Shown here one piece after another: positions 27,948-46,487 of a stretch of DNA of 64,000 nt. The translations under genes and the position numbers were made by a program. The stretch comes from a bacterium (lineage in GTDB: Bacteria > Vulcanimicrobiota > Xenobia > Xenobiales > Xenobiaceae): NCBI GenBank assembly GCA_030535355.1, contig JAUNIO010000007.1, positions 15,742 through 79,741 on the forward strand, read 5' to 3'. Position 1 is the first letter of the stretch. Every line of letters starts with the position of its first letter. The notes beneath the pieces were generated by a model, which was given only the letters and a program-made list of their open reading frames with translations, made no database searches and was not told the DNA's origin.

Positions 27948-28031
27948 GCCGTTCCGGGGCGCTGGCTTCCCCGCCTGAGCGGAAGCCAGCGCCTGCAGAG
28001 CTTACGGCGGTATAGGACTTACAATAAAGAT

Positions 28032-28068
28032 GCGCTGTGCAGAATTCGGTCTGCACAGCGCGTTTTTA
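28032..28068 (+). terminator. intrinsic terminator after the S8 peptidase gene
   Basis: GCGCTGTGCAGA-ATTCGG-TCTGCACAGCGC forms a stem-loop, followed by GTTTTT. Confidence 0.75.
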
Positions 28069-28208
28069 TTTACGTCATTATCATACAAAAATGGCGGAGA
28101 GTCCCCCGCCTAAAGGTTGGACCTTGACATAAATGCCAGCCCAAATGCTACTTACATGTTAGCATACAAAAACAACAATTCAAGCTGTAACTGCCACAGT
28201 CCCAAAGC

Positions 28209-30116
28209 CTAATCTATCTTTTTGGCGTTGACTGAGGAAAGCGCGGTGGTAGCGGCGGCCTTATCCTGGCCCTGCTTAACCACGACGTTTTCGAACTTCC
28301 AATCGGCTAATTTCTGGTTGTCCTTATCGGGATCGATAGTCTCAAAGGTCACGGTATATTCGCCTTCAGGAAGCGCTATCTCAGCGACTTCGTTGACGTT
28401 GTAGGACATATCTAGCACAGCAGCGGGGTCCTTGTCTTCTTCGCCCTTTCTGTAGAATTTCAGGTTGGACAGAGCGTTTTTGGCCGCGTTCTTAATGGAG
28501 ATCATCCCCCAAGTGCGGCGATCGGGAGCGGGCAAATCCCAAGTGTAGCCTTTGACCCAAATCGGGCGGAAGGTTTTGACATCACTCTCCTTGTCTCTGT
28601 CGGCAGTCACGCGCAGCCAGCTGTAATTGGAGTACTCCAAAAGCCCATCAAAGCTGAGCTTAAATGCGGTCTTGCTGTTGTCGTCGACCCCGGCGACACC
28701 TCTAGGAACGAACCAGACCCAGGCCTGGCGGACAGTCCACTGCGTGCGGCAGTTCTTGGGCCAATACTTGTCCCAATTATCGCTCTTGGAAGGCTTGACG
28801 TTCTTAGAATTGTAGTCGTAATGCGGCTGATTCGTAGAGCTGTCCAGAGTATAGTCGATATCGTCCATGGAATAGCTAGTGCTGCTGTTCACGGTACGGC
28901 TGAAAGAGGCGGAAATATTTCCCAGCGGGGCCTTGGAGCTAGAGCCTCCGCAGATGGAACCAGAAAAGGTATTGCTGATTCCGTTGCTGTATTGGTGAGA
29001 ATTGATAGCATTCTCGGGCACAGGCATCTGGAAGTACTGCGCGCCTTCAATAGGATTCCCGCTGCTGTCGAGCAGGCGTACGGTGGTAGCCATATGATTA
29101 AACCAATAGCCCACCATAAAAACTTCAGAAAGCCATCCTGAAGAGCAGTGCCAGGTCTGCCACATGTTTTGATTGTACGGCGTAATAGCACAGGTTACGG
29201 CGTAATAATCTCCGGCTTTAGCACCGTTGCAGGACTGCATGTAGAGGGGATACACCTTGAAATTGACATCGACGGAACTCGAGGCATTAATCTTATGCTT
29301 GGCCTGGAGCTTATAGCATTTGCCGCATTCCTCGTTCAGCGAAAACGGGAAATTGGCGGTGAGGCTGACGCCGGCGCTGTCGATGTCGGTCACCAAGCTG
29401 TCATAATTATAACCGTCATTGACCGCAGAGGGATCGCTAGAGGCGATCAAGCTCTTTTCGCGATCTCTCTGGTTAAGCCATCTCAAAAGGGGCACCACGC
29501 GTCCGTGATTATAAACATCTATGTCGGTTTTTAGCAAATTATCCTGGGGTTCCCCGGCATCAAAGCCCTGCTCCCCATAAACTGTATACTGTTTATGAGA
29601 ATTGCAGTGCGCGTAAAAGAGCACATCCCCGCTGGACAAGCCCGTAGGACGGCTATCAACAGCCAGTTTTAATGAAGAAGACTGCTGTTCCACATCCGGC
29701 CGGACTATGACGACGACTGCGCCGCGTTCCTTGCTGTTTTGCAGATCAGCGCTGCGCTCATACTCTTCACTAGTGCAAAAGATTACGTCAGCTTCATCGG
29801 CTGCCGCCTGCTTGGGGAAACGCTGGCGCAGAGTCTCCTGCATTCCCTCCGATAGCGCGGAAATATCTCCGAAATACGCGGTGCCCTCGTACACTTCTTC
29901 CGAAGTGGGCTCCACGCTGGCGTCGACGATGGCAGGGCCTTCGGCGACAGCAGAGTCTTCAGCAACAGAACCTTCAGCAGCAGCGGCCTTAACAGGTCCA
30001 CTGCTCCCTACATTATCGCTCTCACTGTCACCGCAAGCGGTGAGACCGGCTGATAAAGCTGCTGCCAAAGACATAACAGCTGCTATCTTGGCGGTATTGC
30101 GAATCAGTTGCTTCAT
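28209..30116 (-). CDS. lipoprotein, paralog A (possible leukocidin/hemolysin-like beta-pore-forming core)
   Basis: I moved the start to MKQLIRN at 30116, which follows GGAGGTG. The lipobox is LSAGLTAC. The protein aligns over almost its full length with the 48761-50719 product. Its central Gly/Ser-rich alternating segment resembles a toxin stem. Confidence 0.8.
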   Translation of the reverse strand: MKQLIRNTAKIAAVMSLAAALSAGLTACGDSESDNVGSSGPVKAAAAEGSVAEDSAVAEGPAIVDASVEPTSEEVYEGTAYFGDISALSEGMQETLRQRFPKQAAADEADVIFCTSEEYERSADLQNSKERGAVVVIVRPDVEQQSSSLKLAVDSRPTGLSSGDVLFYAHCNSHKQYTVYGEQGFDAGEPQDNLLKTDIDVYNHGRVVPLLRWLNQRDREKSLIASSDPSAVNDGYNYDSLVTDIDSAGVSLTANFPFSLNEECGKCYKLQAKHKINASSSVDVNFKVYPLYMQSCNGAKAGDYYAVTCAITPYNQNMWQTWHCSSGWLSEVFMVGYWFNHMATTVRLLDSSGNPIEGAQYFQMPVPENAINSHQYSNGISNTFSGSICGGSSSKAPLGNISASFSRTVNSSTSYSMDDIDYTLDSSTNQPHYDYNSKNVKPSKSDNWDKYWPKNCRTQWTVRQAWVWFVPRGVAGVDDNSKTAFKLSFDGLLEYSNYSWLRVTADRDKESDVKTFRPIWVKGYTWDLPAPDRRTWGMISIKNAAKNALSNLKFYRKGEEDKDPAAVLDMSYNVNEVAEIALPEGEYTVTFETIDPDKDNQKLADWKFENVVVKQGQDKAAATTALSSVNAKKID

Positions 30117-30653
30117 AATATTCACCTCCGCTTCTTCACGGAATAAGTGGCCGCATTTGCCTATTTGCAGACTCAGTACCTGGCCTGCCTGCGTCAGCTT
30201 CTGCCCGCTGCGCTCAGATGCTGCGTTTAGCAGAACTGCTGCAAAGCCAGGGCGACGGAAGATAGTGCAAACGATAGACGGCATAAATCACAGATGTGTC
30301 AGCCCACAGCTGAAATGCCCCTATACACATTCAGCAAAAATTACGAGTTAAACCAAAATAGCAATCAGTCAGCTTACAATCGGAAAATATTGGTCTAATT
30401 TGTTGGCATTATATTAAAAACAAATGCCATAAGCTATACTCGTCTTAATATGCAAGCCGGAATTAGCGCGGATTTGCATATTGTCAGTTACGGGCCTAAG
30501 ATACACCTTATTGAACATTCAGTCAATACTGTTGAATGCGGTGCATCTGAATAAATGACTATGTATTCTTGAACAGATCCTGAAAGCGAAATTCTCAATG
30601 TTTAGCGTTTAAAGAGATTCGCCTTACGGATGCGGACGGTTGACTGGGACTTT

Positions 30654-30821
30654 GTTTTACTTTTTGTCGAAAAGTAAAATTTAAATGAAATAAAAGTAAA
30701 AATACTCTGCAAAAAGTAAAATGAAATATCTAAAAGTAAAATGAATCCTTACACTTTTGTTTAATAAGGCTTTTGTCAGATAATAGTTATTGTTTAAGGA
30801 ATTTGAGCAAAAGTAAAAATG
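30654..30821 (+). promoter_or_regulatory. array of AAAAGTAAAA(T) repeats upstream of and overlapping the start of the AlbA_2 gene
   Basis: Direct copies start near 30670, 30692, 30712 and 30732, about 20-21 nt apart. Another overlaps the ATG at about 30809, and an inverted copy lies at 30654-30665. Confidence 0.5.
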
Positions 30822-32309
30822 ACTTGTGAAGAATTGCTGGAAATATTAGCGCAAATACAAAACTCAAGATGCGAAACGCAAAATCTGGAGATTAAAGCTG
30901 CGGCCCAGGGCTGTCCCACGCGTTTGTATGATACGCTCTCAAGTTTTTCTAATCAGGATGAGGGCGGAATCATTGTGTTTGGCGTTGATGAAAAAGATAA
31001 TTTCCGCGAATGCGGCGTTTACAATCCGCAAGATTTGCAAAAGAAGATCGCTGAGCAATGTCTGCAGATGGAGCCGAGAGTCAGGCCTTTGCTGACTATC
31101 GCTGAAAAAGATGGGCGTTTTTTTGCCGCAGCTGAAATACCTGGCTTAGATGCAGCTGATCGTCCCTGCTATTATCAAGGACGAGGCCGTCTTAAAGGCG
31201 CTTATGTGCGCGTCGGCGACAGTGACGAGCCTATGACTGAATATGAAGTATACGCTTATGAAGCCTTTAAAAGAAATTACCAAGATGATATTCGTCCAGT
31301 TGAGCGAGCTTTGCGTTCGGCTTTGGACCAGGAACTGCTGCGAAGCTACCTGCGCCGTTTACAGGACAGCAAACCCAATTTAAGCTCGCTCGGCGATGCG
31401 GAAATATGCGAGCTTCTAAGCTATACCAAAAACGGAACGCCGACCCTGAGCGCAGTTCTGTTGTTTGGCAAATATCCGCAGGCGTTTTTTCCTCAGCTTT
31501 GTATTACCGCCGTCGTTGTTCCGGGAACACAGCTGGGCGATACGGGAGAACAGGGAGAACGGTTTATAGATAATCGCCGGATCGAAGGCAGCGTTTCTGC
31601 TATGCTGGATCAGACTATGGCTTTTTTGAGCAAAAACATGCGTACCAAGATAATTATTGACGCCATGACCGGCAAGAGAGAAGATCGGCCCGAATATCCT
31701 CTGATTGCTTTACGTGAGATGCTTCTCAACGCCTTGGTGCACAGAGACTACAGCACGCATACCGAAGGGACGCCTATCCGGGTTATTATGTACAGAGATC
31801 GTTTGGAAGTCTGCAGTCCCGGCGGCATTTATGGACGTCTTCAGGTAAAACAGCTGGGGCTGGTGCATCCCAGCACAAGAAATCCCGTGCTGGCCACAGC
31901 TTTCGAAGTGATGGGGCTGACCGAAAACCGTTATTCGGGAATCCCGGCTATGCGCCGGGCGATGGCGGATTTCGGGCTGCCCGAGCCAGTATTCACCGAC
32001 GAACGGGGCAATTTTACGGCCACGTTATACAACGGCCTAACTGCTGAATATACCGCCAGCCCTGAGCTTTCAGAACCAGAGCGAAAATTGCTGTTATTTT
32101 TGCAAACGCCGCGCAGCAGAAAAGAGATCGCGGAACATTTAGGTCTAAGTTCGGTGGCTTATGCGCTGAAAGAATATGCCGGGCCATTATTAGACCAGGG
32201 TCTGATTACCATGACCATGCGCGACAAGCCCAGGAGCCATAAGCAAATGTTTGTGCTGAGCGATTCCGGGAAGAAGCTAGTTAGGGATTTTTTACAAAAC
32301 CGATATTAG
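30819..32309 (+). CDS. AlbA_2 (Schlafen-like) + HATPase_c_4 + C-terminal wHTH protein (RecG-like putative transcriptional regulator)
   Basis: The N-terminal ETQNLEIKAA...GGIIVFGV fits AlbA_2. The central LREMLLNALVHRDYS fits HATPase_c_4. The C-terminal RKEIAEHLGLS looks like an HTH. Confidence 0.7.
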   Translation: MTCEELLEILAQIQNSRCETQNLEIKAAAQGCPTRLYDTLSSFSNQDEGGIIVFGVDEKDNFRECGVYNPQDLQKKIAEQCLQMEPRVRPLLTIAEKDGRFFAAAEIPGLDAADRPCYYQGRGRLKGAYVRVGDSDEPMTEYEVYAYEAFKRNYQDDIRPVERALRSALDQELLRSYLRRLQDSKPNLSSLGDAEICELLSYTKNGTPTLSAVLLFGKYPQAFFPQLCITAVVVPGTQLGDTGEQGERFIDNRRIEGSVSAMLDQTMAFLSKNMRTKIIIDAMTGKREDRPEYPLIALREMLLNALVHRDYSTHTEGTPIRVIMYRDRLEVCSPGGIYGRLQVKQLGLVHPSTRNPVLATAFEVMGLTENRYSGIPAMRRAMADFGLPEPVFTDERGNFTATLYNGLTAEYTASPELSEPERKLLLFLQTPRSRKEIAEHLGLSSVAYALKEYAGPLLDQGLITMTMRDKPRSHKQMFVLSDSGKKLVRDFLQNRY

Positions 32310-33330
32310 CGGGCAAACCGAGCGGCCCTTCACCCAGCAGTTTGCGCAGCAGCTTCCAGGTGTGCCCGTGCTGCATATGCCCGCGGTAACTGGCGACGAC
32401 CTGCCTTATATCAGTAGCTTCCATGGTCCCCGCGGCATAAGCATTCCGCATATAGCGCAGTTTCTTCTTACAGCGCTTTTTCGTGCTCTGCCGCACCTTC
32501 CTAATGATTTTTCCGGACTCAGCCAGATAGAAATGAAAGCCCAGGTAATCGATGCCATTTCGCAACGGAGCGATCTTGGTCTTAGCGTTGAACTCCAACC
32601 CTAGCTTATCCGCCAGCGCGCGCATCTCCCGCAGGCAATAGCGCAGATAGGATTTATCGCGATGGATCAGCACCATATCATCCATGTAACGGGAAAAATA
32701 CGCGATCTGCAGGCGCTCCTTGATCAGCCGATCCATTTCATCCAGATAATACAGAGCGAACCACTGGCTAGTCTGATTGCCCAGGGGCAGCCCCTTGCCC
32801 GGGACAGTCTCGTAACTGTCGATGATTACGTGCAATAGCTGCACAAGCCCAGCTTCCTGGAATATTTGGGAAAGCTTGGCTTTAAGCTTTTCGTGATCGA
32901 TATTGTCGAAGAATTTGCGGATGTCGCACTTGAGAAAATAGCCGTCAGGGCCCTGATGCTTATAGTAATCTGCTAGGAAATGCGTAACCCTATGGATGGC
33001 GAACAGGGTTCCCTTGCCTATGCGGCAGGCGGCATTGTCATAGACAAGCCGCTTATCCAGCTCGGGCGCTATTATTTCGTCGCAGAGGCAGTGCTGCACC
33101 ACCCTGTCGCGGTAATGCAGGGCGCTGATGATGCGGGGCTTGGGATCGAAGACGGGAAACTGATAATATCCCGACAGCCTGTAAGAGCCATTGCGCAGGG
33201 CATCCGCTAAGGTCACGAGATGCCAGGAAAGGTTCATTTCGAACTCAATGATCTCTTTTAGGTCGCGTTTGCCCAGCCGGGCCTTTTTATGCGCCTTGTA
33301 TAGATTGGCAAAGGCGCAAAGTTTATCCAT
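32281..33330 (-). CDS. DGR reverse transcriptase
   Basis: LPLGNQTSQWFALYY matches the DGR-specific (I/L)GxxxSQ motif, and YMDDMVLI is the catalytic YxDD box. VFDPKPRIISALHYRDRVVQHCL is also present. From memory, the protein is colinear with Bordetella phage BPP-1 Brt. Confidence 0.92.
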   Translation of the reverse strand: MDKLCAFANLYKAHKKARLGKRDLKEIIEFEMNLSWHLVTLADALRNGSYRLSGYYQFPVFDPKPRIISALHYRDRVVQHCLCDEIIAPELDKRLVYDNAACRIGKGTLFAIHRVTHFLADYYKHQGPDGYFLKCDIRKFFDNIDHEKLKAKLSQIFQEAGLVQLLHVIIDSYETVPGKGLPLGNQTSQWFALYYLDEMDRLIKERLQIAYFSRYMDDMVLIHRDKSYLRYCLREMRALADKLGLEFNAKTKIAPLRNGIDYLGFHFYLAESGKIIRKVRQSTKKRCKKKLRYMRNAYAAGTMEATDIRQVVASYRGHMQHGHTWKLLRKLLGEGPLGLPANIGFVKNP

Positions 33331-33689
33331 TATCAGCTGCCTGCCTTTCCGCTAAGCTCCATAATTGAATAAGTCCCCTATAATCAACGATATTACCTTA
33401 AACCTTTTTACAATTGCCTCATACAGCGTCACGCCGATCGCCTCTCCACTCCGCTCCTTCAAGCAAAGATATGATATTGCCCGCTTAGGCAATGGCCAGC
33501 TTAGAAAATGTAGAGAGGGGCGGCAGGGGAAATATCCCGAAAGCCCGCAAGCGCAATATGCGCGTGAAAGCTCCTGCCGCCATGTGTTTTCATGGCAGAA
33601 ACCAGCGTCCTGCTCATGAGGGAAGGCAGTTCCTTTGTTCTCCGCGCACCGGTCAGCTGCACCTGCAGACTAACATCACACCAGCGGAG

Positions 33690-33818
33690 CAATGCGGGAC
33701 GAACACAGCCAGAATCATTATTAACGTTGTTGCCATTAGTATTGATGTCGCCATCGTTATTTACGTTCGCGGCGTTATTACTATTATTGCCGGGGGAGCG
33801 GAGCCACCACCAACAAGC
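33690..33818 (-). repeat. DGR template repeat (TR)
   Basis: Matches the VR at 34419-34546. Read on the minus strand it encodes ACWWWLRSPGNNSNNAANVNNDGDINTNGNNVNNDSGCVRPA, with 13 AAY Asn codons. It lies between avd and the RT gene. Confidence 0.9.
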
Positions 33819-33853
33819 TCGCCCATACAACTGCCTCCCCATTCAAACCCGCT

Positions 33854-34258
33854 TTACGCAGGCTTAAATCTCTTTCTGTCAGAACTTATCCAAGCTCCGG
33901 TCAGGCGTTCCACATCTGTGGTCAGCCTAGAAATCATCTCAAACTGCTTCATGGTGAGCGCTTTCGACTCCATCGCCAGCTGAGAGACATAAGCCAAAAT
34001 TTTAGCCTCCGAGATGGACTTATGCTGAAATTCCAAGCGTATTCCCCAGCTGGCCAAGTTTTCCCGCGTGACAAACGTATCGTTAGCGCGATAAAGATTC
34101 TCCAATATATCCAGCGCCAGGTTCTGAAGCCTGCTCACAAAGGTAAACCTAAACTGCTTGGGAGATTTGGCCGTAGCGTTGATCACATAGCGGCACAAAT
34201 CCTTAGCTTTGGTGATAACCGTCAGTTCTGATTGATATTCTTTAGCCATATTAATCAA
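33854..34258 (-). CDS. avd: Avd-like four-helix-bundle accessory variability determinant
   Basis: 134-aa helical protein with the basic C-terminus GAWISSDRKRFKP. It lies between the target gene and the TR, as in canonical DGRs. Confidence 0.8.
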   Translation of the reverse strand: MINMAKEYQSELTVITKAKDLCRYVINATAKSPKQFRFTFVSRLQNLALDILENLYRANDTFVTRENLASWGIRLEFQHKSISEAKILAYVSQLAMESKALTMKQFEMISRLTTDVERLTGAWISSDRKRFKPA

Positions 34259-34418
34259 CTTGTTCCGCGCGGCATACCGCCGCGCGGGATGGACACCTAG
34301 ATCAGCCGAAATCTTTAGCTCTAATACGCCATTTAACAGACAAGCTTCTGCTTACGCCCATCTTGAACACAAAAAGTAAAAAAATTAAAAAAGATTAAAA
34401 GAATTAAAATTTTAGATA

Positions 34419-34546
34419 CAAAGCGGGACGAACACAGCCAGAATCATCATAAACGCAGCTGCCATTAGTATGGATGTCGCCATCGCAATCTAAGGACGCG
34501 GCGAGATACTACTATAGCCGGGGGAGCGGAGCCACCACCAACAAGC
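34419..34546 (-). repeat. DGR variable repeat (VR) at the 3' end of the target gene
   Basis: Compared with the TR it has 16 substitutions at TR adenines, one G-to-T change and a 1-nt deletion at an A. The last ~25 nt (GATTCTGGCTGTGTTCGTCCCGC) are identical, like an IMH (initiation of mutagenic homing) element. Confidence 0.9.
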
Positions 34547-35413
34547 GCCGTTATCCTTGTAATTTGCTATTCTCGCCTTACCTGAAGCAAACAGCGAACC
34601 CGCTTCATCAACGGACAGCAGGAAAAGCGTATCCTCACAGCCAACATCGCTAAGCTTCGTTTTCAGGATCCTGGTCCGATCTTTAGCGGAGAAATGCTTC
34701 TTTAAGAATTCACCGTTCAAGTATTGCCGCAAGCTACACCTGGCCCAGCTGTTGGTGCTCTGATCCGTATGAAACGCCCGTTGATCGACGCAATCCTTGG
34801 TGATGAGCAACGCGTTATCGCCAGATTTTCTCAGGACCAGCCAATCGAAGTCCCCGAAATGCACAATGCTGCCGACTTGAGCGCTTTTCATCACGGTCCG
34901 ATAGGCTTGTTCCTCTTTCGCTTCCTTCTCCTTCTCGACATCTTTCCTGCGCCGCTCTTCCTCAGCGCTGGCTCGGCTCTTTAATTCTGCCTCAAATTCC
35001 TGAAGCTCCAACTCGCTCAGCTTATTCTTGGTAGCCGCTAAAAGCACGCAATTCTCGAGGACGATACCCTTATCCTTAAGACTGATATTCTTCTCAGCTA
35101 TAGATAGGGCGAGGACGGGCCGGGGAAACTCCCCCAGCTCCAGCCCCACATATTTTACATTGCCCACCTGGTAGGGCGCGGTAAAGCGATGACCTATAAG
35201 ATACACGATCAGCTTTTCCCGCCTCTCTTCGGCAGCGCTTTCGAGTATGTCGTAAAGGTCTTCCTGGGACAAAGCAATAGAATCTATCTTCTTGAGGATT
35301 TCCGCATTATCCGTAATCCGGCGCAAACGCCCGAGTTTATTATCCTTTTCCGCAGCCAGAGGGTCGCTAATTTCCATTACGCTCTTAGATACATTGTTTT
35401 CCATTCTCGACAT
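34490..35413 (-). CDS. DGR target protein, C-type-lectin/FGE-like (WWLRSPG-type) variable domain; apparently truncated by a frameshift in the VR
   Basis: The C-terminus ...NGACWWWLRSPGYSSISPRP* overlaps the VR. The N-terminus has no signal peptide. A Lys/Glu-rich coiled-coil stretch lies mid-protein. Confidence 0.85.
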   Translation of the reverse strand: MSRMENNVSKSVMEISDPLAAEKDNKLGRLRRITDNAEILKKIDSIALSQEDLYDILESAAEERREKLIVYLIGHRFTAPYQVGNVKYVGLELGEFPRPVLALSIAEKNISLKDKGIVLENCVLLAATKNKLSELELQEFEAELKSRASAEEERRRKDVEKEKEAKEEQAYRTVMKSAQVGSIVHFGDFDWLVLRKSGDNALLITKDCVDQRAFHTDQSTNSWARCSLRQYLNGEFLKKHFSAKDRTRILKTKLSDVGCEDTLFLLSVDEAGSLFASGKARIANYKDNGACWWWLRSPGYSSISPRP

Positions 35414-35472
35414 ATTATTTACTCCTCACAGACAGGCGGCCAGCCTAACAGCAACCAACGGCTGAGATAACC

Positions 35473-35670
35473 TCAGCGCGGATCGCTGACCGTATCCACA
35501 TAGCCTTCACTCATCTTCCCTAAAATAAACTGAGCCTGCTCTACAGTCATATCCGGCGCTCTGTTGGGCGAATTCTCGGCCTGAGTATCTTCCGCGTCGC
35601 CGGGCCGCACGGCAGATAAGGTCCTAGCCACATCGGCGCTGGCAGCTCCTGAGCGAGGCGTGGCACGCAA
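35473..35670 (-). CDS. small hypothetical protein
   Basis: 65-aa ORF on the same strand, between the operon and the DGR target. No motifs. Confidence 0.3.
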   Translation of the reverse strand: MRATPRSGAASADVARTLSAVRPGDAEDTQAENSPNRAPDMTVEQAQFILGKMSEGYVDTVSDPR

Positions 35671-35753
35671 GCCTGCGGCCCAGGCCGCGTGCGCTTTAAG
35701 AGGAAGGGCAGGGGCGCGTCCGGCTTTTTTCTCCGGTTAATCTCCGGTTTAGA

Positions 35754-36455
35754 CTACGGTTTAGACTCCGCAGACGGCTGCTTCTCTGGACGCTGAGGCG
35801 CGGTACTCGGAGACTCCGGCGGCGGAGCAATCGCTTTGGCCACAGAAGAGGGCTGGCGCGGCACCATCACCTTCGCAGCGGAAGAGGACTGACGCAGCGC
35901 AGGCGTTAGCCCCTTATCCAAGCTGCCGTATATTTTCAACCCCAGCCACCCCTTAGCGTTCAGGGACGTAACGGTCACGAGGGCATCGTTCTTGACGTCC
36001 TTGAGGCGCAGTCCCGGCCCAAACGGCTGCTCCTGCAGATCCAGAAAAGTCTGGAAATCCTCCTGTTTCCAAGGAATATCCTCATACTGGTTTCGCGAGG
36101 CCGCACTAGCCTGCCAAAGCTCATCCAGAATTCCCGTCATTTCAATAACTAGCGCAGGATCGCTGCTATCAGAGAGCAGACAGACACTCCTCCCCTCCAA
36201 AGAGGGCAGCTGCCCGCTCTTCCCCTGGTACGTATGCCCCTGCGGAAACTCCTGACTGTTTAAGCTCATGGCGTTTTTCCACTGCTGCAGATAGCCTTCC
36301 ATCTGTCCTGGGGCCTGGCTGGGGTCCTGACATTCCACCCCGTCTAAGCGCTTCAGATCAAATACCGTCGGATCTTCCCGCACTATATACGCCCAAACTT
36401 TATGATCGGAGAGGGCAAACAAATACCTGACAACCGTCACCTTCCGCGCACTCAT
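35754..36455 (-). CDS. hypothetical protein with a Pro/Ser-rich tail
   Basis: 233-aa ORF. Its start overlaps the upstream gene's stop by 4 nt (ATGA), suggesting translational coupling. Confidence 0.6.
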   Translation of the reverse strand: MSARKVTVVRYLFALSDHKVWAYIVREDPTVFDLKRLDGVECQDPSQAPGQMEGYLQQWKNAMSLNSQEFPQGHTYQGKSGQLPSLEGRSVCLLSDSSDPALVIEMTGILDELWQASAASRNQYEDIPWKQEDFQTFLDLQEQPFGPGLRLKDVKNDALVTVTSLNAKGWLGLKIYGSLDKGLTPALRQSSSAAKVMVPRQPSSVAKAIAPPPESPSTAPQRPEKQPSAESKP

Positions 36456-36940
36456 AGCAGATCATCGTCCTCCATCATTCTGCAGTTTTGCATCTCCCTG
36501 CGCCCAGCGGCAAACTCCCCCGCCAAGCTCTGCCACTGGCGGTTATGTTCGCGCTTCCAGTCGCCGCACCGCCGCTTCACCTGCTCTCTATGCTCCCGGC
36601 CTTCCCGCTCCAGCCTGCCGATCCGGGCCGCGGCCACCCGCATAGCTAAGGATTCCGCTCCGTCCACAGCCGCCGGGACTTCCCCTTTAGGCAGGCGCAA
36701 GGACTGCGACTCCAGCTTTTGCCGGGGTGACAGGCTCTGCTGGGCCTCCACACTGTTTTTATAACGCTTCAGCCCGTCGTTCAAGCGTTCGAAGCTCGCT
36801 TTATGTTCTTCTCCAGCTTTAGAGTGCAATTTTGCAGCAGCCTCGGCCTCCACTTGTTCGGTCACGGTTTTCTTTATTTTGGCACCCGACGAAGCTATCT
36901 CCCAGCTCTTCTTGTCCATTTCCTCCCAGCTCATCTGCAT
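36452..36940 (-). CDS. hypothetical helical, charged protein
   Basis: 162-aa ORF, coupled by a 4-nt overlap to the downstream gene. Confidence 0.55.
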   Translation of the reverse strand: MQMSWEEMDKKSWEIASSGAKIKKTVTEQVEAEAAAKLHSKAGEEHKASFERLNDGLKRYKNSVEAQQSLSPRQKLESQSLRLPKGEVPAAVDGAESLAMRVAAARIGRLEREGREHREQVKRRCGDWKREHNRQWQSLAGEFAAGRREMQNCRMMEDDDLL

Positions 36941-37044
36941 TTCCCCTGTCAGTTTTTCCGTAAATTTCTACGCCAACTTCCACGATCGAGGTCTATTATC
37001 AAGTGCTCACGTCAGCTTCTCCTATCAGCTTATCCTGTAAGCGG

Positions 37045-37959
37045 CTAGAGGCGCTCCGCCGCGCCCTGCTCGCGCTGCTCTGCCAAAGCTCCCTCGCGCA
37101 GCATCTTTTTATCCTCGGGAGCCATGCCGTAAGCATCGAAGATCATGGGGTCATCGCGCAGCAGCTTCTCGCGCTGCTCCTGCAGCTCCCCACGGTACAT
37201 CTTAGCCACAGCCTGGTGCGACTTATCCAAACTGGCCGCCCGCCAGTCGCGCAGAAGCTCCCGCAGCTGCACGGGATCGCGATCGGGGCAGTGCTTCTGC
37301 AGGGCCGCCAGCAGAGCATCTCTAAGACGCAGCATATCGTTCTCCGGCAGCAGGCCCTGCAGGTACTGCTTGATTTCCACCCTGCTGTAGCCGGACTGTT
37401 TAAAGGCTTCAATGACCGCCAGCTGCTCCTCCGGCTCCATGCGGCACAGCGCGGCCTGCTCCATAAAGGTATCCGGCAGCACGATCCCCTCGCGCTCACC
37501 GATCTCCTCTTTCAGAACGGTCACCCCCACAGCCTGGTAATTCACCTTTTCGGGCAGGTCCATCGCCTCAGTCTCCACTATCGGCAGTTTCTCTTTCAGG
37601 TAACCGTAGTAATCGGCAAAGGAGGGAAAATCTTTCCTTTCCATCCAGTCGGTCTTTTTGACGGCCTCGGCCACGCGGTAGCCGATCTCCTCCGCCACTT
37701 CTTGCTTAACGGTAATGCCCAGGGACTTCGCCAAGAAGGTGACCGTTTCCGAAACAAACTTCTCGGCCACCAGACCTAAAATCTGCCCAACGACAGGTCC
37801 CAGCGGCCCGCCCACCATGACGGCGGACAGCGCTCCTGTCAAAATGGAAGCCCCAGCGGATATGGCTCTTCCCACGCCGCTGAAAATGGCCTTACCGACG
37901 CTGCAGATACTGCTGACGCAGCTGCCGACAAGGCTGCATAAACCACTCAAGAAACCCAT
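37045..37959 (-). CDS. glycine-zipper membrane protein with a helical cytoplasmic domain
   Basis: The N-terminal ~70 aa (MGFLSGLCSLVGSCVSSICSVGKAIFSGVGRAISAGASILTGALSAVMVGGPLGPVVGQILGLV) carry repeated small-xxx-small motifs. Confidence 0.6.
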   Translation of the reverse strand: MGFLSGLCSLVGSCVSSICSVGKAIFSGVGRAISAGASILTGALSAVMVGGPLGPVVGQILGLVAEKFVSETVTFLAKSLGITVKQEVAEEIGYRVAEAVKKTDWMERKDFPSFADYYGYLKEKLPIVETEAMDLPEKVNYQAVGVTVLKEEIGEREGIVLPDTFMEQAALCRMEPEEQLAVIEAFKQSGYSRVEIKQYLQGLLPENDMLRLRDALLAALQKHCPDRDPVQLRELLRDWRAASLDKSHQAVAKMYRGELQEQREKLLRDDPMIFDAYGMAPEDKKMLREGALAEQREQGAAERL

Positions 37960-38167
37960 AATGTTACCTCCTCTGCTCCCTTACTTTAGAAATGTCATTT
38001 ATTAACAATGTCATTTTGTTAATACTTCGCGAACAAGTTATCGTTTACACCAGCTTCCGCGCCAGCGCAGCTTTGCTCAGCTCAGAAAGTCCTTGAGCAG
38101 GATTGTGACTCGCTGTATTTGCTGCCCAGCCAGCGTCAGAATACTTAATTGAACCAGCCAGGTTTGC

Positions 38168-41100
38168 TCATTGAGTTCCTGCCCGCCAGGCCTGAGCTTC
38201 TAAATTGAAAAGCAAATCAAGCCTGGTCTTCTCGTCGAGTTCCAGCTCGCCCAGCCAATAGCGAAGCATCGTTTCCAGAGCCTCTGCTTTGCTGGCGCAG
38301 GTACGGCCATAGATATTCCCATAAATATAGTGCACCAGCAGGGCAAAATCCGCACCTTCCAGCTTAAGTTCCGAACGGACAAAGCCCAAATGTTCCTTAA
38401 ACGCTCCTTCCGGATTGTCGGCAGGTTTTTCGGAGTCTGTGATCACAGCCTGGCGATAGAGCTGCAGCAAACGCCTGTCCCGCATTAGCTGCAAGTATTT
38501 GCGCACTCTTTTCGGGGTAATTTCACCCGGGGAGAAATGCTCCAGTCCCGGCAGCACGCCCAGCTTACAGTTTTGGGGCTGAGCGTAATAAACTTCGGCC
38601 ACCTCCCGCACCTGCTCATCATCGGCCTCGAGCAGCTCTCCCGCATCGTTGTCGATCTTGACCTGCACGGCCTTGGGCCAGTCCTGGGTCAGCACGATGG
38701 CGTAGCCGGCGCGCAGATTGGAAAGGAAAGCTTTTTGGTCATCCTCCAAAGCCATAGTATTGCCGATAGCTTCCTTGTCGTCCTGAGCGAAGAGCCTGTG
38801 CACGATTTTGGTATTGGTGTTTTTCAGAACCTCCGGCGTCATCTTATCCGGGATTTGATCTACGATAATCAGAGACTCTCCGTATTTGCGCACCTCCGCC
38901 AGCATATTGGCGAAGACCTCGACGCCCTGGCGCTTGCTGGGGCTGTCGCCGGGCACAAAGCGGCTGAACAGGCGGTGGGCTTCCTCCACCAGGGTAATGT
39001 GCTGAAAGCGCCGGCCCTCTTTGCGTCTTGCGTAGTATTCCAGCTTCACGGCCTGAAGCAGATTGGTCATGATAAAGCCCATAATCATGGATTTTTCCGC
39101 GCCATTGCGGATCTCTTCCAGTTCAATAACCACCTGGCGGTGAATCAAATCGCGGAAATTCACCGAGCGCGGCGTGTTCAGCATCAGGCCCTTAGCTCCC
39201 ACCATCAGGCTGTTGATACGGGCGCGCAGAGAACCCAGGTACTCGGCTTGCAGGCGCTCGCCGAACTCCTGTTCTATGGTGACCTCCTCCACAGCCTTTT
39301 TGAAATCCGTTAGGGTAGGGAAAGCGTAGCTGCCCGGGGCGAAGGGGTCCTCCTTCTTCCCATTCACGAACCACTCGTCCGTGCTGACATTCCAGCCCTT
39401 ATACTCGTAAGCGCGATAGACGCCAGCCTCCAAAATTTGGGGAATAGCCGCTTCCATCTCAAAGGCCGCTTCCATGGTGGCCTTGATCATATCCGCCCGG
39501 GCCGACACCGGCTCGCCCGGAAACAGCTCAAAGGGATTGAGGTAAAAGGGCGCGGTATCCTGTTGGCCAGGCGTGAAATAGGTCAGCTGAGGGAAACGGG
39601 GCTGGCCTTGGTCATCTTTCTGGCCGTAGAGCGTGCGATACTCTGTCTTGACAGGTTCGATGACCAGAAAAGGTACGCCGCATTCGCGCAGGATTTTCTG
39701 ACAGGTCGTGGTCTTGCCGCTGCCCGTAACCCCGGCCACAAAAGTGTGCTTGTCGAGAACCCTTCTATCCAAGGCGATCGGCACCTGGCGGCGCACCGTG
39801 CCGCACTGCACCAGATGGCCCAGCTCCAAGCGATCTTCCTGCGGCTGCGGCACGTTCAGGCCGAATTCCACCTCCCGGCGCAGGCCCAGGCCGATAACAT
39901 CTCTTTGGGGCAGGCCCGTCAGAATTCCCAGCTCCTCGGCTGAAAGCCAGCTGCCGCAAAAGACCTTCTGATTCCCAGAAGTTTTCTGAGAGAGCGCCGC
40001 CATACCCAGGCGAACCAATTCCCCCTCCCGGCGCTTAGCATGAGGTATCTGCAGATTCTGCAGCGCTTCATAGCAGCGTTTGTGCTTGGGAGAGTCTCGC
40101 TCGATCTCGGCGAAGGATAAAGCCGAACGGTTGCCTTGCTGGCTGCTGTAGAGCGACATCGCCGTATTGGCCAGCCGGTACATGACCGGACGGTCGTCGC
40201 TGAAGAGAAATGCGCAGGTCAGGAAAAGCCCTTTGCCCCGCCCCCGATCCAGGCGAGGCAGCAGCACATCGTCCAGATATTTGCTCCAGCCCGAAGCTTC
40301 GCGGTTGTCACTGCGCAGCTGCACGGTTAAATTAACGCTGCGGCTGGAGCTGGAAGTGTCCGAACGCGTTTTGTGGTGCGCATAGGTGGTGCTGAAGCTG
40401 TCATCCCGGCTGCTGCCCGTCTGGGAGCCGCTGCTGCTGGATTGGCTGCTGCCATCCGTAGTGCTGTAAGAGTCGCTGTACTGGCGCTGCTCACTGCTGC
40501 TGGTAGAATAATTTTTCCGTCCATCATGCCCAGCGCTGTAATTTTCGGAATCACTCTCCGATTGGGTGTTCGAGCTACCGCCAGAAGACTTGTTATTCGA
40601 TGTGCTCTTCGACGAAGTCGAGGAATTGTGCTGGCCATATTCCTCGCTCGTATTGCTGCCCGCTGACGCCTGGACCTGGTTGGTGCGCGTATGGCGCACC
40701 TCCTCATCAGTGCGGTTGCTGCTCTCGCTCTCGTGCTGCGATTCCGTTTGGTGCACGCCGTGCGAGGACTGCCGGGCATGGCTGATGCTGCCGCTCGCAC
40801 TGTTGCTGTCTGAGCTGCCCTCTGTGAATTGCCGCGTCAGATTGGCCAGCGGGGCCAGCAAGTCGAAAACCCGCAGCAGGTCGGCCTCGAGAGCATCCAT
40901 TTCCGCTTCGGTATAGGGCTGGGCCAGCACCACAAAGCCAAAGCTGCTGCCCCCCATCACGTCGATCAGGCGGTCCACGCCCTGGAAATCTCCCTGAGCC
41001 TGATCGGGATCGGCCCCGGGCACTCCGGTCAGCACGCCGAAATATTTAGCACTGCGCATACGCTCCAGCACCTCAGCCTTCTCCGCCGCCCGGTTTTGCG

Positions 41101-41563
41101 AGCCCAGCTCGGTCACCTGGCTGCCCCGAAAATTGCCCTCTATGCTCGGCTTAAGGAGCTTGCTGACTAAATCGTACTCGTTGAGCTTGAATTCGGAGGG
41201 GTTATTTTCGGTGAGATCGCGGCCCACCCCGAAGTAAAAATCCACTTTGCCCTGGCCGTCGCCGAGGATTATGTAGATAAAATTCATGGCCTCGCAGCGC
41301 CGGAAGGCGCCCAGGATATTCTCCAGGGCCTCGCGGCGCGGGGCCTTTTCCTCGAACATGATCTCATCTATATGGCAGAGAAAAAACTGATCCGCGGCCA
41401 GACTGCGGGGCAACGGCAGCCATTCCGTTTCCCCCGCCAGCAGGGAACGGTGAGCGGGAGCGCGCAAATATTTGAGCAATTCCCGGGACTTCTCATTCTC
41501 AAGATCGGCCTTCTCCAGGTCCTGACCATCGGCTCCGCGCTGTTCAGCTCTCATCTCGTCCAT
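38168..41563 (-). CDS. HerA/FtsK-superfamily P-loop ATPase with an N-terminal unknown domain and a Ser-rich disordered insert
   Basis: Walker A is VAGVTGSGKTTT and the DEAH-like Walker B is ITLVEEAHRLF. A SLIIVDQIPDK motif is also present. Residues ~245-415 are low-complexity Ser/Thr/Asn/Gln. Confidence 0.8.
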   Translation of the reverse strand: MDEMRAEQRGADGQDLEKADLENEKSRELLKYLRAPAHRSLLAGETEWLPLPRSLAADQFFLCHIDEIMFEEKAPRREALENILGAFRRCEAMNFIYIILGDGQGKVDFYFGVGRDLTENNPSEFKLNEYDLVSKLLKPSIEGNFRGSQVTELGSQNRAAEKAEVLERMRSAKYFGVLTGVPGADPDQAQGDFQGVDRLIDVMGGSSFGFVVLAQPYTEAEMDALEADLLRVFDLLAPLANLTRQFTEGSSDSNSASGSISHARQSSHGVHQTESQHESESSNRTDEEVRHTRTNQVQASAGSNTSEEYGQHNSSTSSKSTSNNKSSGGSSNTQSESDSENYSAGHDGRKNYSTSSSEQRQYSDSYSTTDGSSQSSSSGSQTGSSRDDSFSTTYAHHKTRSDTSSSSRSVNLTVQLRSDNREASGWSKYLDDVLLPRLDRGRGKGLFLTCAFLFSDDRPVMYRLANTAMSLYSSQQGNRSALSFAEIERDSPKHKRCYEALQNLQIPHAKRREGELVRLGMAALSQKTSGNQKVFCGSWLSAEELGILTGLPQRDVIGLGLRREVEFGLNVPQPQEDRLELGHLVQCGTVRRQVPIALDRRVLDKHTFVAGVTGSGKTTTCQKILRECGVPFLVIEPVKTEYRTLYGQKDDQGQPRFPQLTYFTPGQQDTAPFYLNPFELFPGEPVSARADMIKATMEAAFEMEAAIPQILEAGVYRAYEYKGWNVSTDEWFVNGKKEDPFAPGSYAFPTLTDFKKAVEEVTIEQEFGERLQAEYLGSLRARINSLMVGAKGLMLNTPRSVNFRDLIHRQVVIELEEIRNGAEKSMIMGFIMTNLLQAVKLEYYARRKEGRRFQHITLVEEAHRLFSRFVPGDSPSKRQGVEVFANMLAEVRKYGESLIIVDQIPDKMTPEVLKNTNTKIVHRLFAQDDKEAIGNTMALEDDQKAFLSNLRAGYAIVLTQDWPKAVQVKIDNDAGELLEADDEQVREVAEVYYAQPQNCKLGVLPGLEHFSPGEITPKRVRKYLQLMRDRRLLQLYRQAVITDSEKPADNPEGAFKEHLGFVRSELKLEGADFALLVHYIYGNIYGRTCASKAEALETMLRYWLGELELDEKTRLDLLFNLEAQAWRAGTQ

Positions 41564-41642
41564 CTAGCCCTCCTGCTCTTATCCTTCTCCGCTTATCCTT
41601 AGCTCAACCTCAGCTTAACCTTGCTTACCCCACTGGGAACGC

Positions 41643-44600: not shown

Positions 44601-44708
44601 CAGCTGGCCCAAACCGTCATCAGCCTTTTTAATTATGCTGCTTTCTATTTTCGTTTTGGGCAGTTTTACGCTTTTCACGGGAATGGGAGTAACTGTACAC
44701 AAATCCAT
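41643..44708 (-). CDS. Hsp70/actin-fold ATPase-like protein with large N- and C-terminal extensions and no canonical substrate-binding domain
   Basis: Hsp70 nucleotide-binding motifs are present: AIDFGTKSTVVA (phosphate-1), SEPAAYAA, IFDFGGGTTDFDFG (phosphate-2) and ILLAGNSCKSPVV (adenosine). Confidence 0.8.
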   Translation of the reverse strand: MDLCTVTPIPVKSVKLPKTKIESSIIKKADDGLGQLGREFTELLNLLREPCDRRFIKMKSDPLWLDRQVAGLYPQWEKAGVSLRLGCGHYAAEVGAYTELACGGLRFEPVTAQEGMRTFCQGNGNPYLNEAGYLQIAGSTYKSYLFSGSFGGLKNDLKTESGRLLSFNNGNAQEAGRLAAVGQSVQFPLMAVCRLRGNNALPLSYPETIWELLCWKLIPEGLSAEQEDAFRRMLETPYAEDLKVFLPYLEEAKGGISLKIGALLANFRAGRIKRSVYGVRYDYQANTDAVLSGSDVKLIFDYYLNSDKRRADLTPYSEDQLTDRNKGHWELFEGLKQRDEAGYSAIQLEQPVFARPPQNDIIQNGEVAIDFGTKSTVVACARGTDERLLRVGKGNYAAAPVLEDFENPTVIELRDLQGFRRAYEAREGRPLTEWEQLTVSHQAYNDLKDIGGYSIFSELKQWANDRKRRLLLEDGQGRDLELKPYLELENGDFDPIEVYAYYLGLYINNMMHGIFLRYNLSFPVNYGKDVCGRLKASFERGLRKSLPPSILSDDKVMKYFFVDSLVSEPAAYAACALKELGLQPKESGQRVSYAIFDFGGGTTDFDFGVEEKPEDRRFGKFILHQFGASGDVNLGGENLLNLMAYEVYKDNLQVMRSMFIPFVLPPDAEPFAGAERLVYKTDQAPQEAYMNRRALAELMRPIWEKHEGYQNKFSKGNTSINLYSLGGEQQGPVSVKLVIKVDALEKLVERRIEVGVDNFFDMLFQVFGPKNYPDRLKQLPIHILLAGNSCKSPVVKKLFQRKIEAIEKNGQQRLLEERGQEANTKVMFALHLPLGMQEEAASDQQPGADQAKKETEAALAAEAERLAIELDRTCTGKTGVAFGLLRCRRSGKDVRIDDENRADGEAPFIWYLGNLDDEDKFNTVIPPNGGYGVWNKYDYANENCFYLYYTSEPRAAKPGVLPKRAVSCLFCSLDDDEVSDSPDTAIYIRKVDPNTIEYAVGRPEDFAKPEVQRKTHRQELK

Positions 44709-44830
44709 ATCTCTATACCTCCGGCCTCCAGCAGCCTGCTGCAGCTAGGGCAGCCAGGCAGAAGCGGCCTCTGAACTAACAAATATGACCAACGATTATT
44801 ACCAACAAATATTAAACTTCTGTCCTGTCC

Positions 44831-46111: not shown

Positions 46112-46130
46112 TTCTCAGCCTACTTCCAAA

Positions 46131-46471: not shown

Positions 46472-46487
46472 GCAAAACACACCCAGC

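What the first reader, a model, noticed from the sequence alone, without database searches (positions are those of the whole stretch)
34490..35413. The DGR target looks cytoplasmic, not surface-displayed
- The target has no signal peptide, lipobox or transmembrane segment.
- Its first ~190 aa include a Lys/Glu-rich coiled-coil stretch (EAELKSRASAEEERRRKDVEKEKEAKEE).
- A WWLRSPG-type lectin/FGE-like variable domain follows.
- Phage and many bacterial DGR targets are receptor-binding or surface proteins. An intracellular hypervariable ligand-binding domain next to ATPases points to sensing of invader components inside the cell.
Basis: inference. Interest (0 to 1): 0.6.

Follow-up and report, generated by a model that had tools for sequence, protein, structure and literature searches.

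The report
Signal-less, frameshifted DGR variable protein
The gene rewritten by this bacterium's mutagenic retroelement encodes a soluble protein with no export signal, so it may work inside the cell, but this copy is cut short by a one-base deletion and its link to the neighbouring ATPases looks coincidental.

Summary
The ORF at 34490-35413 (-) is the target of a complete DGR: RT 32281-33330, TR 33694-33818, Avd 33854-34258, VR 34423-34546.

**Observation: mostly holds.**
- The target has no signal peptide, lipobox or TM segment. The same scan flags secreted paralogues in this genome.
- A DUF6273 C-type-lectin domain follows a charged helix. That helix is an E/K/R-rich single helix, not a heptad coiled coil.
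A 1-nt deletion at a template adenine (34506/34507) removes the last ~31 residues that intact orthologues (317-332 aa) carry.

**Interpretation: partly supported.**
- A cytoplasmic location is the default reading.
- The adjacent HerA-type and "Hsp70-like" genes are probably chance neighbours. They differ in GC (0.56 vs 0.50), and their homologues elsewhere lack DGRs.
- The target's N-terminal domain belongs to an unannotated, always signal-less family. That family is fused to swappable Sel1/LRR/TPR binders and sits in a conserved cassette with a different, classical AAA+ ATPase (34 of 45 loci). Two copies lie elsewhere in this genome.
- This fits an intracellular recognition role but does not prove it.

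Cytosolic DGR targets are already published, so this is a new variant of a known kind.

The parts
34490..35413 (-). DGR target ORF as assembled (307 aa), ending at a premature TAG
   Evidence: ORF, GAGGAG RBS, DUF6273 hit at 199-301, no hydrophobic segment
35024..35356 (-). N-terminal domain (residues ~20-130) of an unannotated family ('ND sub2')
   Evidence: phmmer finds 196 representative proteins at E<=1e-3. A family HMM scores E 1.6e-22. AF2 model has pLDDT 72-88. No fold match: best PDB Z 3.8, BFVD E>=0.2.
34895..35014 (-). E/K/R-rich single long helix (residues ~134-173), a spacer of variable length among orthologues
   Evidence: Helix 134-173 in the P0002 model. No heptad register, 11 i/i+4 salt-bridge pairs. 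Indels in this stretch in alignment A2.
34493..34885 (-). DUF6273 C-type-lectin-fold domain, in-frame part (residues ~177-307)
   Evidence: Pfam. Fold of orthologue: Z 18.0 to 9qa6, 8.9 to 8q4e, 8.1 to TvpA 2y3c, 5.8 to Mtd 1yu0. Profile hit to 9qa6 at E 4e-12.
34404..34499 (-). Out-of-frame remainder of the target gene (31 codons plus stop) that orthologues read in frame
   Evidence: translation ends ...SGCVRPALYLKF*, as in P0002-P0005
34423..34546 (-). Variable repeat (VR)
   Evidence: 16 substitutions and 1 deletion at TR adenines, 1 G>T, no other differences inside the repeat
34506..34507 (-). Site of the 1-nt deletion relative to the TR (TR codon AAT reads A-T)
33854..34258 (-). Avd-like accessory gene (134 aa)
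   Evidence: bAvd E 8e-8, 33.2 bits, below the curated 40; 23S_rRNA_IVP E 5e-4. It lies between VR and TR.
33694..33818 (-). Template repeat (TR), 12 AAY codons
32281..33330 (-). DGR reverse transcriptase (349 aa; LGNQTSQ and YMDD motifs)
   Evidence: RVT_1 E 6e-21. 38-44% identity to DGR RTs of gut phages nd12, FP_Toutatis, Lelie and FP_Brigit. It is the only such RT in the genome.

Best explanation
The gene is the variable protein of a complete, recently active DGR.

**Architecture (shown).** Intact forms (317-332 aa) have three parts:
- a ~110-residue N-terminal alpha/beta domain of an unannotated family;
- a ~40-residue E/K/R-rich single helix acting as a spacer;
- a C-terminal DUF6273 C-type-lectin-fold domain, whose last ~40 residues are rewritten at 12 AAY codons.

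**Localisation (inferred).** The protein has no Sec, Tat, lipoprotein or membrane signal, so by default it stays in the cytoplasm of a host that appears to be diderm.

**Role (inferred).** The N-terminal domain is the constant module of proteins whose C-termini are swappable binding domains (Sel1, BspA-type LRR, TPR, here a lectin fold). These are normally encoded in a co-oriented cassette with a classical AAA+ ATPase, a ~350-540-aa protein with a glycine-rich membrane-like tail and, in 17 of the 45 loci, a WYL regulator. I therefore read the target as a DGR-diversified member of this binder family: an intracellular recognition subunit. If it has an ATPase partner, that is more likely the classical AAA+ ATPase encoded on contigs C86, C106 and C33 of this genome than the HerA-type or 'Hsp70-like' genes next door. 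The target keeps only the second of the family's two N-terminal subdomains, so even that link is uncertain.

**State of this copy (shown).** As assembled it is switched off by a 1-nt deletion at a template adenine inside the VR. The TR is intact, so a further round of retrohoming would overwrite the VR and restore the frame. The deletion could instead be an assembly artefact of a heterogeneous VR.
For: - **DGR anatomy and A-specific TR/VR differences:**
- **Export signals:** none in the target or orthologues, with positive controls in the same genome. Omp85 is present and WXG100 was not found.
- **Lectin fold and long helix:**
- **N-domain family:** 196 representatives. C-terminal Sel1 in 12, LRR_5 in 8, TPR, and DUF6273 in 4 of 66. 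0 of 148 have a signal-peptide-like N-terminus and 4 of 148 have any TM-like stretch. The family HMM hits the target at E 1.6e-22.
- **Cassette:** the AAA+ ATPase lies beside the N-domain gene in 34 of 45 loci by tblastn. ORF clustering places the AAA+ ATPase and the third ('X497') protein in 32 loci each, and WYL/WCX in 17, all on the same strand. The ATPase has PF00004 plus AAA_lid_3, an IetA-like ATPase domain, and a full-length match to phrog_8638.
- **Own-genome copies:** C86:1-2789 and C106:28351-32373. C86 is compositionally native.
- **Independence from the neighbouring module:**
Against: - No localisation predictor (SignalP, DeepTMHMM) and no experiment was available. Hydropathy cannot exclude non-classical export.
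- The target lacks the first N-terminal subdomain of the family. No AAA+, X497 or WYL gene of the cassette lies on its contig.
- The function of the cassette itself is unknown.
- In DUF6273 relatives with a TM segment, the lectin domain lies on the far side of the membrane from the kinase, TIR, DnaJ or Zn-ribbon domains.
- The closest solved structure is a domain of Thomasclavelia ramosa IgA protease, which degrades IgA, an extracellular substrate.
- One Lachnospiraceae locus (L065) also has an N-domain gene 3 kb downstream of a HerA-type/'Hsp70-like' module. This is a second co-occurrence that pure chance explains less easily.
- The copy here is truncated, so it may have no function at present.
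Confidence: 0.5

Rival explanations
1. The protein is exported without a classical signal and its lectin domain binds extracellular ligands. Export could run through the glycine-rich membrane protein and AAA+ ATPase of the N-domain cassettes, or through another non-classical route.
For: - In DUF6273 relatives with one TM segment, the lectin domain follows the TM and lies opposite kinase, TIR-TPR, DnaJ or Zn-ribbon domains.
- 14 of 61 relatives have N-terminal hydrophobic signals.
- The closest solved structure is a domain of an IgA protease.
- 21 of 30 X497 proteins have a hydrophobic, Gly-rich C-terminal segment that could sit in the membrane.
- Most cellular DGR targets are membrane-anchored or secreted (PMC8144416).
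Against: - No known secretion signal or apparatus was found: no WXG100, and no C-terminal sorting motif, because the C-terminus is the VR itself.
- 0 of 148 N-domain family members has a signal peptide. That would require a wholly new export route.
- WYL regulators and the toxin-antitoxin and Mrr-like neighbours seen in one locus (L065) fit a conflict system better.
Confidence: 0.15
2. The target is a remnant of a phage or other mobile-element DGR. Its product was a particle-associated binder, such as a tail or head decoration protein, which needs no signal peptide because it is released by lysis.
For: - The RT is 38-44% identical to DGR RTs of gut phages whose targets carry DUF6273 (PMC11792537, PMC10743442).
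- The lectin part is ~30% identical to the Hoc-like decoration protein of phage FP_Brigit.
- P0002 hits phrog_9958.
- The DGR is patchy in the order, in 2 of 40 genomes.
Against: - None of the 19 neighbouring ORFs scanned has a phage structural domain.
- The N-domain has no PHROG hit, no match in 50,697 phage records and no BFVD fold match.
- The DGR's GC equals the genome's.
Confidence: 0.1
3. One reading: the target works together with the adjacent HerA-type and 'Hsp70-like' ATPases as their hypervariable sensor.
For: - Same strand, 340 nt downstream of the last gene of the module.
- A second case of an N-domain gene ~3 kb downstream of such a module, in Lachnospiraceae UBA7086 (L065).
Against: - Homologues of the HerA-type gene in 7 other genomes have no RT, Avd, DUF6273 or N-domain gene in up to 20 kb of flank. 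The only exception is a 37-aa RT-like hit in L043.
- The module is in 6 of 18 family genomes and the DGR RT in one other. The two sets do not overlap.
- GC is 0.562 against 0.499.
- In L065 the N-domain gene has its own WYL regulator, as in the AAA+ cassettes.
Confidence: 0.07
4. The gene is simply dead. The frameshift is real and fixed, and the DGR target is decaying and has no current role.
For: - The 1-nt deletion truncates the conserved C-terminal strand of the lectin fold.
- There is one non-adenine TR/VR difference.
- No independent assembly of this allele exists.
Against: - RT, Avd and TR are intact. 16 adenine-specific substitutions show recent activity.
- The deletion sits at a template adenine, as expected of an RT error that the next retrohoming round would overwrite.
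- A heterogeneous VR is also a classic source of assembly error.
Confidence: 0.15

Closest known systems
Canonical C-type-lectin-fold DGR variable proteins: Bordetella phage BPP-1 Mtd (1yu0), Treponema denticola TvpA (2y3c), Legionella LdtA
   Same: VR at the C-terminus of a CLec fold (Z 8.1 to TvpA, 5.8 to Mtd). AAY-codon template, adenine-specific mutagenesis, and RT plus Avd next to the target.
   Different: Mtd is a phage tail-fibre tip. TvpA and LdtA are exported lipoproteins. This protein has no signal or lipobox, and it has a different N-terminal module and an ER/K helix.
DUF6273 targets of gut phage DGRs (Faecalibacterium phages Lelie, Roos, Pioen, FP_Brigit; tentaclins of phages nd4 and nd12; PMC11792537, PMC10743442)
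   Same: Same Pfam domain with the VR at its C-terminal end. The RT is 38-44% identical.
   Different: Those targets are fused to Ig-like, Fn3 or tail-fibre domains and sit in phage genomes. Here the partner domain is the N-domain of a cellular AAA+ cassette family, and no phage genes are nearby.
Cytosolic DGR targets of conflict or signalling systems: cyanobacterial kinase-CLec proteins (PMC7517822); STAND-NTPase and MoxR-vWA 'ternary' systems of Thiohalocapsa PB-PSB1 (PMC10907252; Kaur et al. 2020, PMC7159879); CPR AAA-CLec fusions
   Same: A signal-less hypervariable CLec domain, proposed to act as an intracellular ligand or 'antigen' sensor.
   Different: The target has no NTPase, kinase, TIR or peptidase domain, and no MoxR/vWA neighbours. 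Its only link to an ATPase is indirect, through the N-domain family's cassette with a classical (Cdc48/FtsH-type, IetA-like) AAA+ ATPase.
N-terminal domain of Thomasclavelia ramosa IgA protease (PDB 9qa6)
   Same: Closest solved structure and the only sequence-detectable PDB relative of the lectin domain: Z 18.0, 159 residues, rmsd 2.1, 24% identity; profile E 4e-12.
   Different: It is a domain of a large protease that acts on IgA, an extracellular substrate; it is not a DGR target.

Membership tests
DGR variable protein (target gene) | VR/TR repeat pair whose differences fall at template adenines | tested here: met
   Inside the repeat: 16 A>N substitutions, 1 A deletion, 1 G>T
DGR variable protein (target gene) | DGR-type reverse transcriptase and accessory Avd in the same cassette | tested here: met
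   RVT_1 E 6e-21, and 38-44% identity to phage DGR RTs. Avd-like: bAvd E 8e-8 but 33.2 bits, under the curated 40.
DGR variable protein (target gene) | Open reading frame continuous through the VR | tested here: not met
   A 1-nt deletion at 34506/34507 gives a premature TAG at 34490. The remainder is out of frame.
Pfam DUF6273 / C-type-lectin fold | Profile match above the curated cut-off, and a CLec fold | tested here: met
   60.8 bits against 23.5. Orthologue model pLDDT 90-98; Z 18.0 to 9qa6, 8.9 to Lcl, 8.1 to TvpA. The window copy lacks the last ~31 residues.
Surface-displayed DGR lipoproteins (TvpA / LdtA type) | N-terminal signal peptide with lipobox (or Tat signal) | tested here: not met
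   Max KD19 0.97, no Cys in the first 40 residues, no h-region after RLRR. Controls are positive. Hydropathy only; SignalP was not available.
Phage receptor-binding or decoration DGR targets (Mtd, tentaclins, Hoc-like) | Gene lies among virion structural genes of a phage or prophage | tested here: not met
   19 neighbouring ORFs scanned with Pfam show no phage structural domain. The N-domain has no PHROG hit or phage match.
DGR-diversified NTPase conflict systems (STAND; MoxR-vWA-VMAP) | CLec sensor fused to a STAND/AAA NTPase, or adjacent conserved MoxR and vWA genes | tested here: not met
   No NTPase domain in the target. The neighbours are a HerA-type gene and an unannotated 1021-aa gene, and their adjacency is not conserved.
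N-domain / AAA+ / X497 / WYL cassette family (unnamed, defined here) | Second N-terminal subdomain (sub2) | tested here: met
   Family HMM E 1.6e-22, residues 26-129; phmmer finds 196 hits
N-domain / AAA+ / X497 / WYL cassette family (unnamed, defined here) | First N-terminal subdomain (sub1, MAKKxKFPLDMGN...) | tested here: not met
   No sub1 HMM hit in any frame of the window. Orthologues start at the same place.
N-domain / AAA+ / X497 / WYL cassette family (unnamed, defined here) | Adjacent co-oriented classical AAA+ ATPase and X497 gene | tested here: not met
   No hit on contig C15. Copies lie on C86, C106 and C33. 11 of the 45 reference loci also lack the ATPase in the stretch fetched.

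The most novel reading that the evidence does not exclude
The target is the hypervariable recognition subunit of a so-far undescribed AAA+-based conflict cassette of gut bacteria: a WYL regulator, N-domain binders with swappable Sel1/LRR/TPR/lectin heads, a classical AAA+ ATPase and a glycine-zipper membrane protein. The DGR would give that system an adaptive, antibody-like repertoire inside the cell, working in trans with the AAA+ copies on other contigs.
Probability: 0.2. Interest if true: 0.75.

Novelty: new variant of a known kind. Interest (0 to 1): 0.45.

Why it matters
- Most cellular DGR targets are membrane-anchored or secreted binders (PMC8144416). Signal-less ones are the basis of the 'hypervariable intracellular antigen sensor' idea, which has never been tested at the bench.
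- This locus adds a compact three-part example: constant N-domain, rigid helix, lectin head. Its constant domain ties it to a widespread, unannotated AAA+ cassette of gut and rumen bacteria. That gives two concrete, testable objects: the cassette, and its DGR-coupled offshoot.
- It also shows that adjacency to ATPases in an island of mobile cassettes is weak evidence of partnership.
- A DGR can switch its own target off by an indel at a template adenine, and this is in principle reversible.

Tried and rejected

**Searches that found nothing useful**
- The search for related loci with the orthologue alignment found no relative in genome, metagenome or viral contigs.
- No full-length orthologue was found in the 40 genomes of the order.
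- Sequencing runs: no RNA holder is listed. Only small-share DNA holders exist (0.05-0.09). Laid on 28000-47000 they gave short, low-depth contigs, none covering the VR, so the frameshift and VR diversity could not be checked. The depth peak at 34340-34973 comes from the A/T-rich stretch after the gene.
- The promoter and terminator scan of 32000-36600 was no better than shuffles.
- Rfam found nothing in 30000-37000.
- The N-domain fold has no convincing match: best PDB Z 3.8 (beta-helix/LRR-like rows), BFVD E >= 0.2. PADLOC has no hit for the target or the N-domain proteins.

**Ideas rejected**
- Heptad coiled coil.
- Remote VRs: the six other DUF6273 paralogues of the genome differ from the TR at all base types, so they are not targets of this TR.
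- A hidden upstream exon carrying a signal peptide or sub1: only 4 codons are open upstream, and there is no sub1 HMM hit in the window.
- C86 as bin contamination: GC 0.508 and tetranucleotide r 0.93 to the genome.

**Not done**
In P0002 numbering they fall at ~295-318, in the beta-hairpin 299-315 and its flanking loops.
Full report
**What is there.**
The window (contig C15 of a 3.54-Mb, 126-contig genome, GC 0.498) carries one complete DGR on the minus strand:
- target ORF 34490-35413
- VR 34423-34546
- Avd-like gene 33854-34258
- TR 33694-33818
- RT 32281-33330

Inside the repeat the TR and VR differ by 16 substitutions and one deletion at TR adenines, plus a single G>T. Eleven of the twelve AAY codons are changed. 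This is the only such RT in the genome. Six other DUF6273 paralogues are not targets of this TR.

**The ORF is a truncated gene.**
- The VR is one base shorter than the TR: TR codon AAT reads A-T between 34506 and 34507. This shifts the frame and gives ...SPGYSSISPRP* with TAG at 34490.
- The next frame (34404-34499) encodes ASLDCDGDIHTNGSCVYDDSGCVRPALYLKF*.
- Four orthologues at 64-71% identity (P0002-P0005, 317-332 aa, from ENA, NCBI and Logan assemblies) read through and all end ...VRPALYLKF.
The lectin domain as assembled lacks most of its variable hairpin and its last strand.
- I could not tell a real allele from an assembly artefact. No public run covers the VR.
- RT, Avd and TR are intact and the deletion sits at a template adenine. 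A retrohoming error that a later round would overwrite is therefore plausible (inference).

**Export signals.**
- The protein has no 19-residue stretch above Kyte-Doolittle 0.97, no Cys in the first 40 residues, and no hydrophobic core after its RLRR.
- Only four codons are open upstream of the ATG, which has a GAGGAG site 9 nt before it.
- The same scan flags two tandem paralogues on C2 (KD15 2.8 at residues 13-27) and a TM segment in the C118 paralogue. None of the orthologues is flagged.
- The genome has an Omp85 homologue (E 4e-46). The host therefore appears to be diderm, and display would require passage of two membranes. No WXG100 gene was found.
- This is hydropathy only. SignalP and DeepTMHMM were not available.

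**Architecture.**
An AlphaFold2 model of P0002 (58-sequence alignment) shows three features:
- A confident C-terminal domain with pLDDT 90-98.
- One long helix at 134-173.
- A poorly modelled N-terminus.

The C-terminal domain matches these structures:

| Structure | Z |
|---|---|
| N-terminal domain of Thomasclavelia ramosa IgA protease, 9qa6 (159 residues, 24% identity) | 18.0 |
| Legionella Lcl C-terminal domain | 8.9 |
| TvpA | 8.1 |
| Many C-type lectins | 6-7 |
| Mtd | 5.8 |

A family profile also finds 9qa6 by sequence (E 4e-12). The CLec fold is therefore confirmed for the intact form.

The 'coiled coil' is 47% E/K/R with 11 i/i+4 opposite-charge pairs. No heptad register has more than 27% hydrophobic core positions, and its length varies among orthologues. 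I read it as an ER/K single-helix spacer.

**The N-terminal domain.**
- Residues ~20-130 hit 196 representative proteins in an exhaustive phmmer search.
- In those proteins the domain ('sub2') usually starts near residue 90, after a conserved ~90-residue 'sub1' (MAKKxKFPLDMGN...).
- It is followed by variable C-termini: Sel1 in 12 of 66, BspA-type LRR in 8, TPR, DUF6273 in 4, or unannotated.
- Neither subdomain is in Pfam, PHROGs or PADLOC.
- A model built on 66 sequences (pLDDT 72-88 over 20-130) has no convincing fold match: best Z 3.8, BFVD E >= 0.2.
- None of 148 representatives has a signal-peptide-like N-terminus, and four have any TM-like stretch.
- The target and its orthologues have sub2 only.

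**The family's cassette.**
- Forty-five loci were found in GTDB genomes of Lachnospiraceae, Ruminococcus, Clostridium, Eubacterium, Selenomonas, Veillonella and others.
- They share a co-oriented cassette: one or two N-domain genes, a classical AAA+ ATPase of ~498 aa, a 340-550-aa protein ('X497'), and a WYL/WCX regulator.
  - The ATPase is present in 34 of 45 loci by tblastn, at 46-80% identity.
  - By ORF clustering, X497 is in 32 loci and the regulator in 17. Many of the loci without these genes sit on short contigs.
- The ATPase has PF00004 plus AAA_lid_3. It resembles the ATPase domain of the defence protein IetA, and it matches phrog_8638 over its full length.
- X497 has a Gly/Ala/Ser-rich, weakly hydrophobic C-terminal segment in 21 of 30 members.
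- This genome has two such cassettes:
  - C86:1-2789 carries the AAA+ ATPase and an N-domain protein with Sel1-type repeats. C86 is compositionally native.
  - C106:28351-32373 carries a sub1 protein, the AAA+ ATPase and an X497-like protein.
- A third, more distant AAA+ copy lies on C33.
- What the cassette does is unknown. A sensor-ATPase-membrane-effector conflict system is my inference, based on the swappable binders, the WYL regulator and, in locus L065, neighbouring toxin-antitoxin and Mrr-like genes.

**The neighbouring ATPases.**
- The upstream 1131-aa protein has a HerA/DUF87-type ATPase domain.
- Homologues of the HerA-type gene occur in 8 other genomes of a 401-genome phylum sample.
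- For 7 of these I fetched up to 20 kb of flank. They contain no RT, Avd, DUF6273 or N-domain gene, apart from one 37-residue RT-like hit.
- The module is in 6 of 18 other genomes of the family. The DGR RT is in one other (G014), which lacks the module.
- GC is 0.562 for the module against 0.499 for the DGR cassette and 0.498 for the genome.
- One counter-observation: in Lachnospiraceae UBA7086 (L065) an N-domain gene lies ~3 kb downstream of such a module. It is preceded by its own WYL regulator, as in the AAA+ cassettes, so I read this as two cassettes side by side in an island.

**Evidence against a cytoplasmic role.**
- Of 61 mid-length DUF6273 relatives, 14 have N-terminal hydrophobic signals. 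Seven have an internal TM segment that puts the lectin domain opposite kinase, DnaJ or Zn-ribbon domains.
- Most long TIR-TPR-DUF6273 proteins likewise have one TM segment before the lectin domain.
- Signal-less forms also exist: TIR-DUF6273 (P0056) and DUF4062-coiled-coil-DUF6273 (P0018).
- The RT and the lectin domain resemble those of gut phage DGRs, whose targets need no signal peptide (PMC11792537, PMC10743442). No phage structural gene lies near the locus.

**Comparison with the literature.**
- Most cellular DGR targets carry a TM segment or a signal peptide (PMC8144416).
- Cytosolic targets are described for cyanobacteria ('most ... predicted to be cytosolic', PMC7517822).
- They are also described for STAND and MoxR-vWA conflict systems of Thiohalocapsa PB-PSB1 (PMC10907252), building on Kaur et al. 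2020 (PMC7159879).
- Earlier notes of this scan list many cytoplasmic DGR targets in gut genomes, mostly MoxR fusions.
- The concept is therefore known. New here are the N-domain/ER-K-helix/DUF6273 architecture and its tie to an unannotated AAA+ cassette.

**Verdict.**

| Reading | Probability |
|---|---|
| Intracellular variable binder of the N-domain family, with the neighbouring ATPases coincidental | 0.5 |
| Non-classical export | 0.15 |
| Decaying pseudogene | 0.15 |
| Phage or particle remnant | 0.1 |
| Partner of the HerA-type/'Hsp70-like' module | 0.07 |

These figures are judgement, not computed.

Noticed in passing
L047-L091 (e.g. L049:6900-12600, L064:4790-9871); own genome C86:1-2789 and C106:28351-32373: A conserved, apparently undescribed co-oriented cassette in gut and rumen bacteria. 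It comprises a WYL/WCX regulator, 1-2 proteins with a constant two-part N-terminus and swappable Sel1/LRR/TPR heads, a classical AAA+ ATPase (IetA-like ATPase domain, phrog_8638) and a 340-550-aa protein with a Gly-rich hydrophobic tail.
   Followed up: partly
window 37045-37959 (N-terminus of the 304-aa protein) and own genome C106:28351-29679 (C-terminus of the X497-like protein): Both proteins carry similar Gly/Ser/Cys/Ala-rich, glycine-zipper-like segments (e.g. ...SGIKSCVSSFCSGISSFFGF against GFLSGLCSLVGSCVSSICSVG...). The HerA-type module and the AAA+ cassette may therefore use the same kind of membrane-active component.
   Followed up: no
L065:1-13436 (Lachnospiraceae bacterium UBA7086): An 'Hsp70-like'/HerA-type module with two small genes is followed by a WYL regulator, an N-domain gene, Phd/ParE-like gene pairs and an Mrr-like gene. 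This is an island of stacked cassettes that resembles the window's layout.
   Followed up: partly
own genome C86:1311-2789: The AAA+ ATPase is 80% identical in protein sequence to copies in Ruminococcus sp. XPD3002 and R. flavefaciens (L058, L082), although the host genome has an Omp85 homologue and the contig is compositionally native. This suggests recent transfer between distant gut bacteria.
   Followed up: partly
window 34493: This is the single non-adenine TR/VR difference (TR GTA, VR TTA). It lies directly beside the premature TAG created by the frameshift.
   Followed up: no
own genome C2:8109-9585, C36:40652-41975, C108:113697-114908, C118:78526-80196: There are six further DUF6273 paralogues, none matched to the TR. 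Two in tandem have signal-peptide-like N-termini. Two in tandem are short and signal-less. One has Zn-ribbon motifs, and one has a Zn-ribbon, a TM segment and a long linker. The same genome thus holds both exported and signal-less forms of the domain.
   Followed up: partly
window 30819-32309 (+): An AlbA_2/Schlafen-HATPase_c_4-Fic-like_C gene converges on the RT gene, and its 3' end overlaps the RT's by 29 nt. It has weak PADLOC similarity to pAgo-associated proteins.
   Followed up: no
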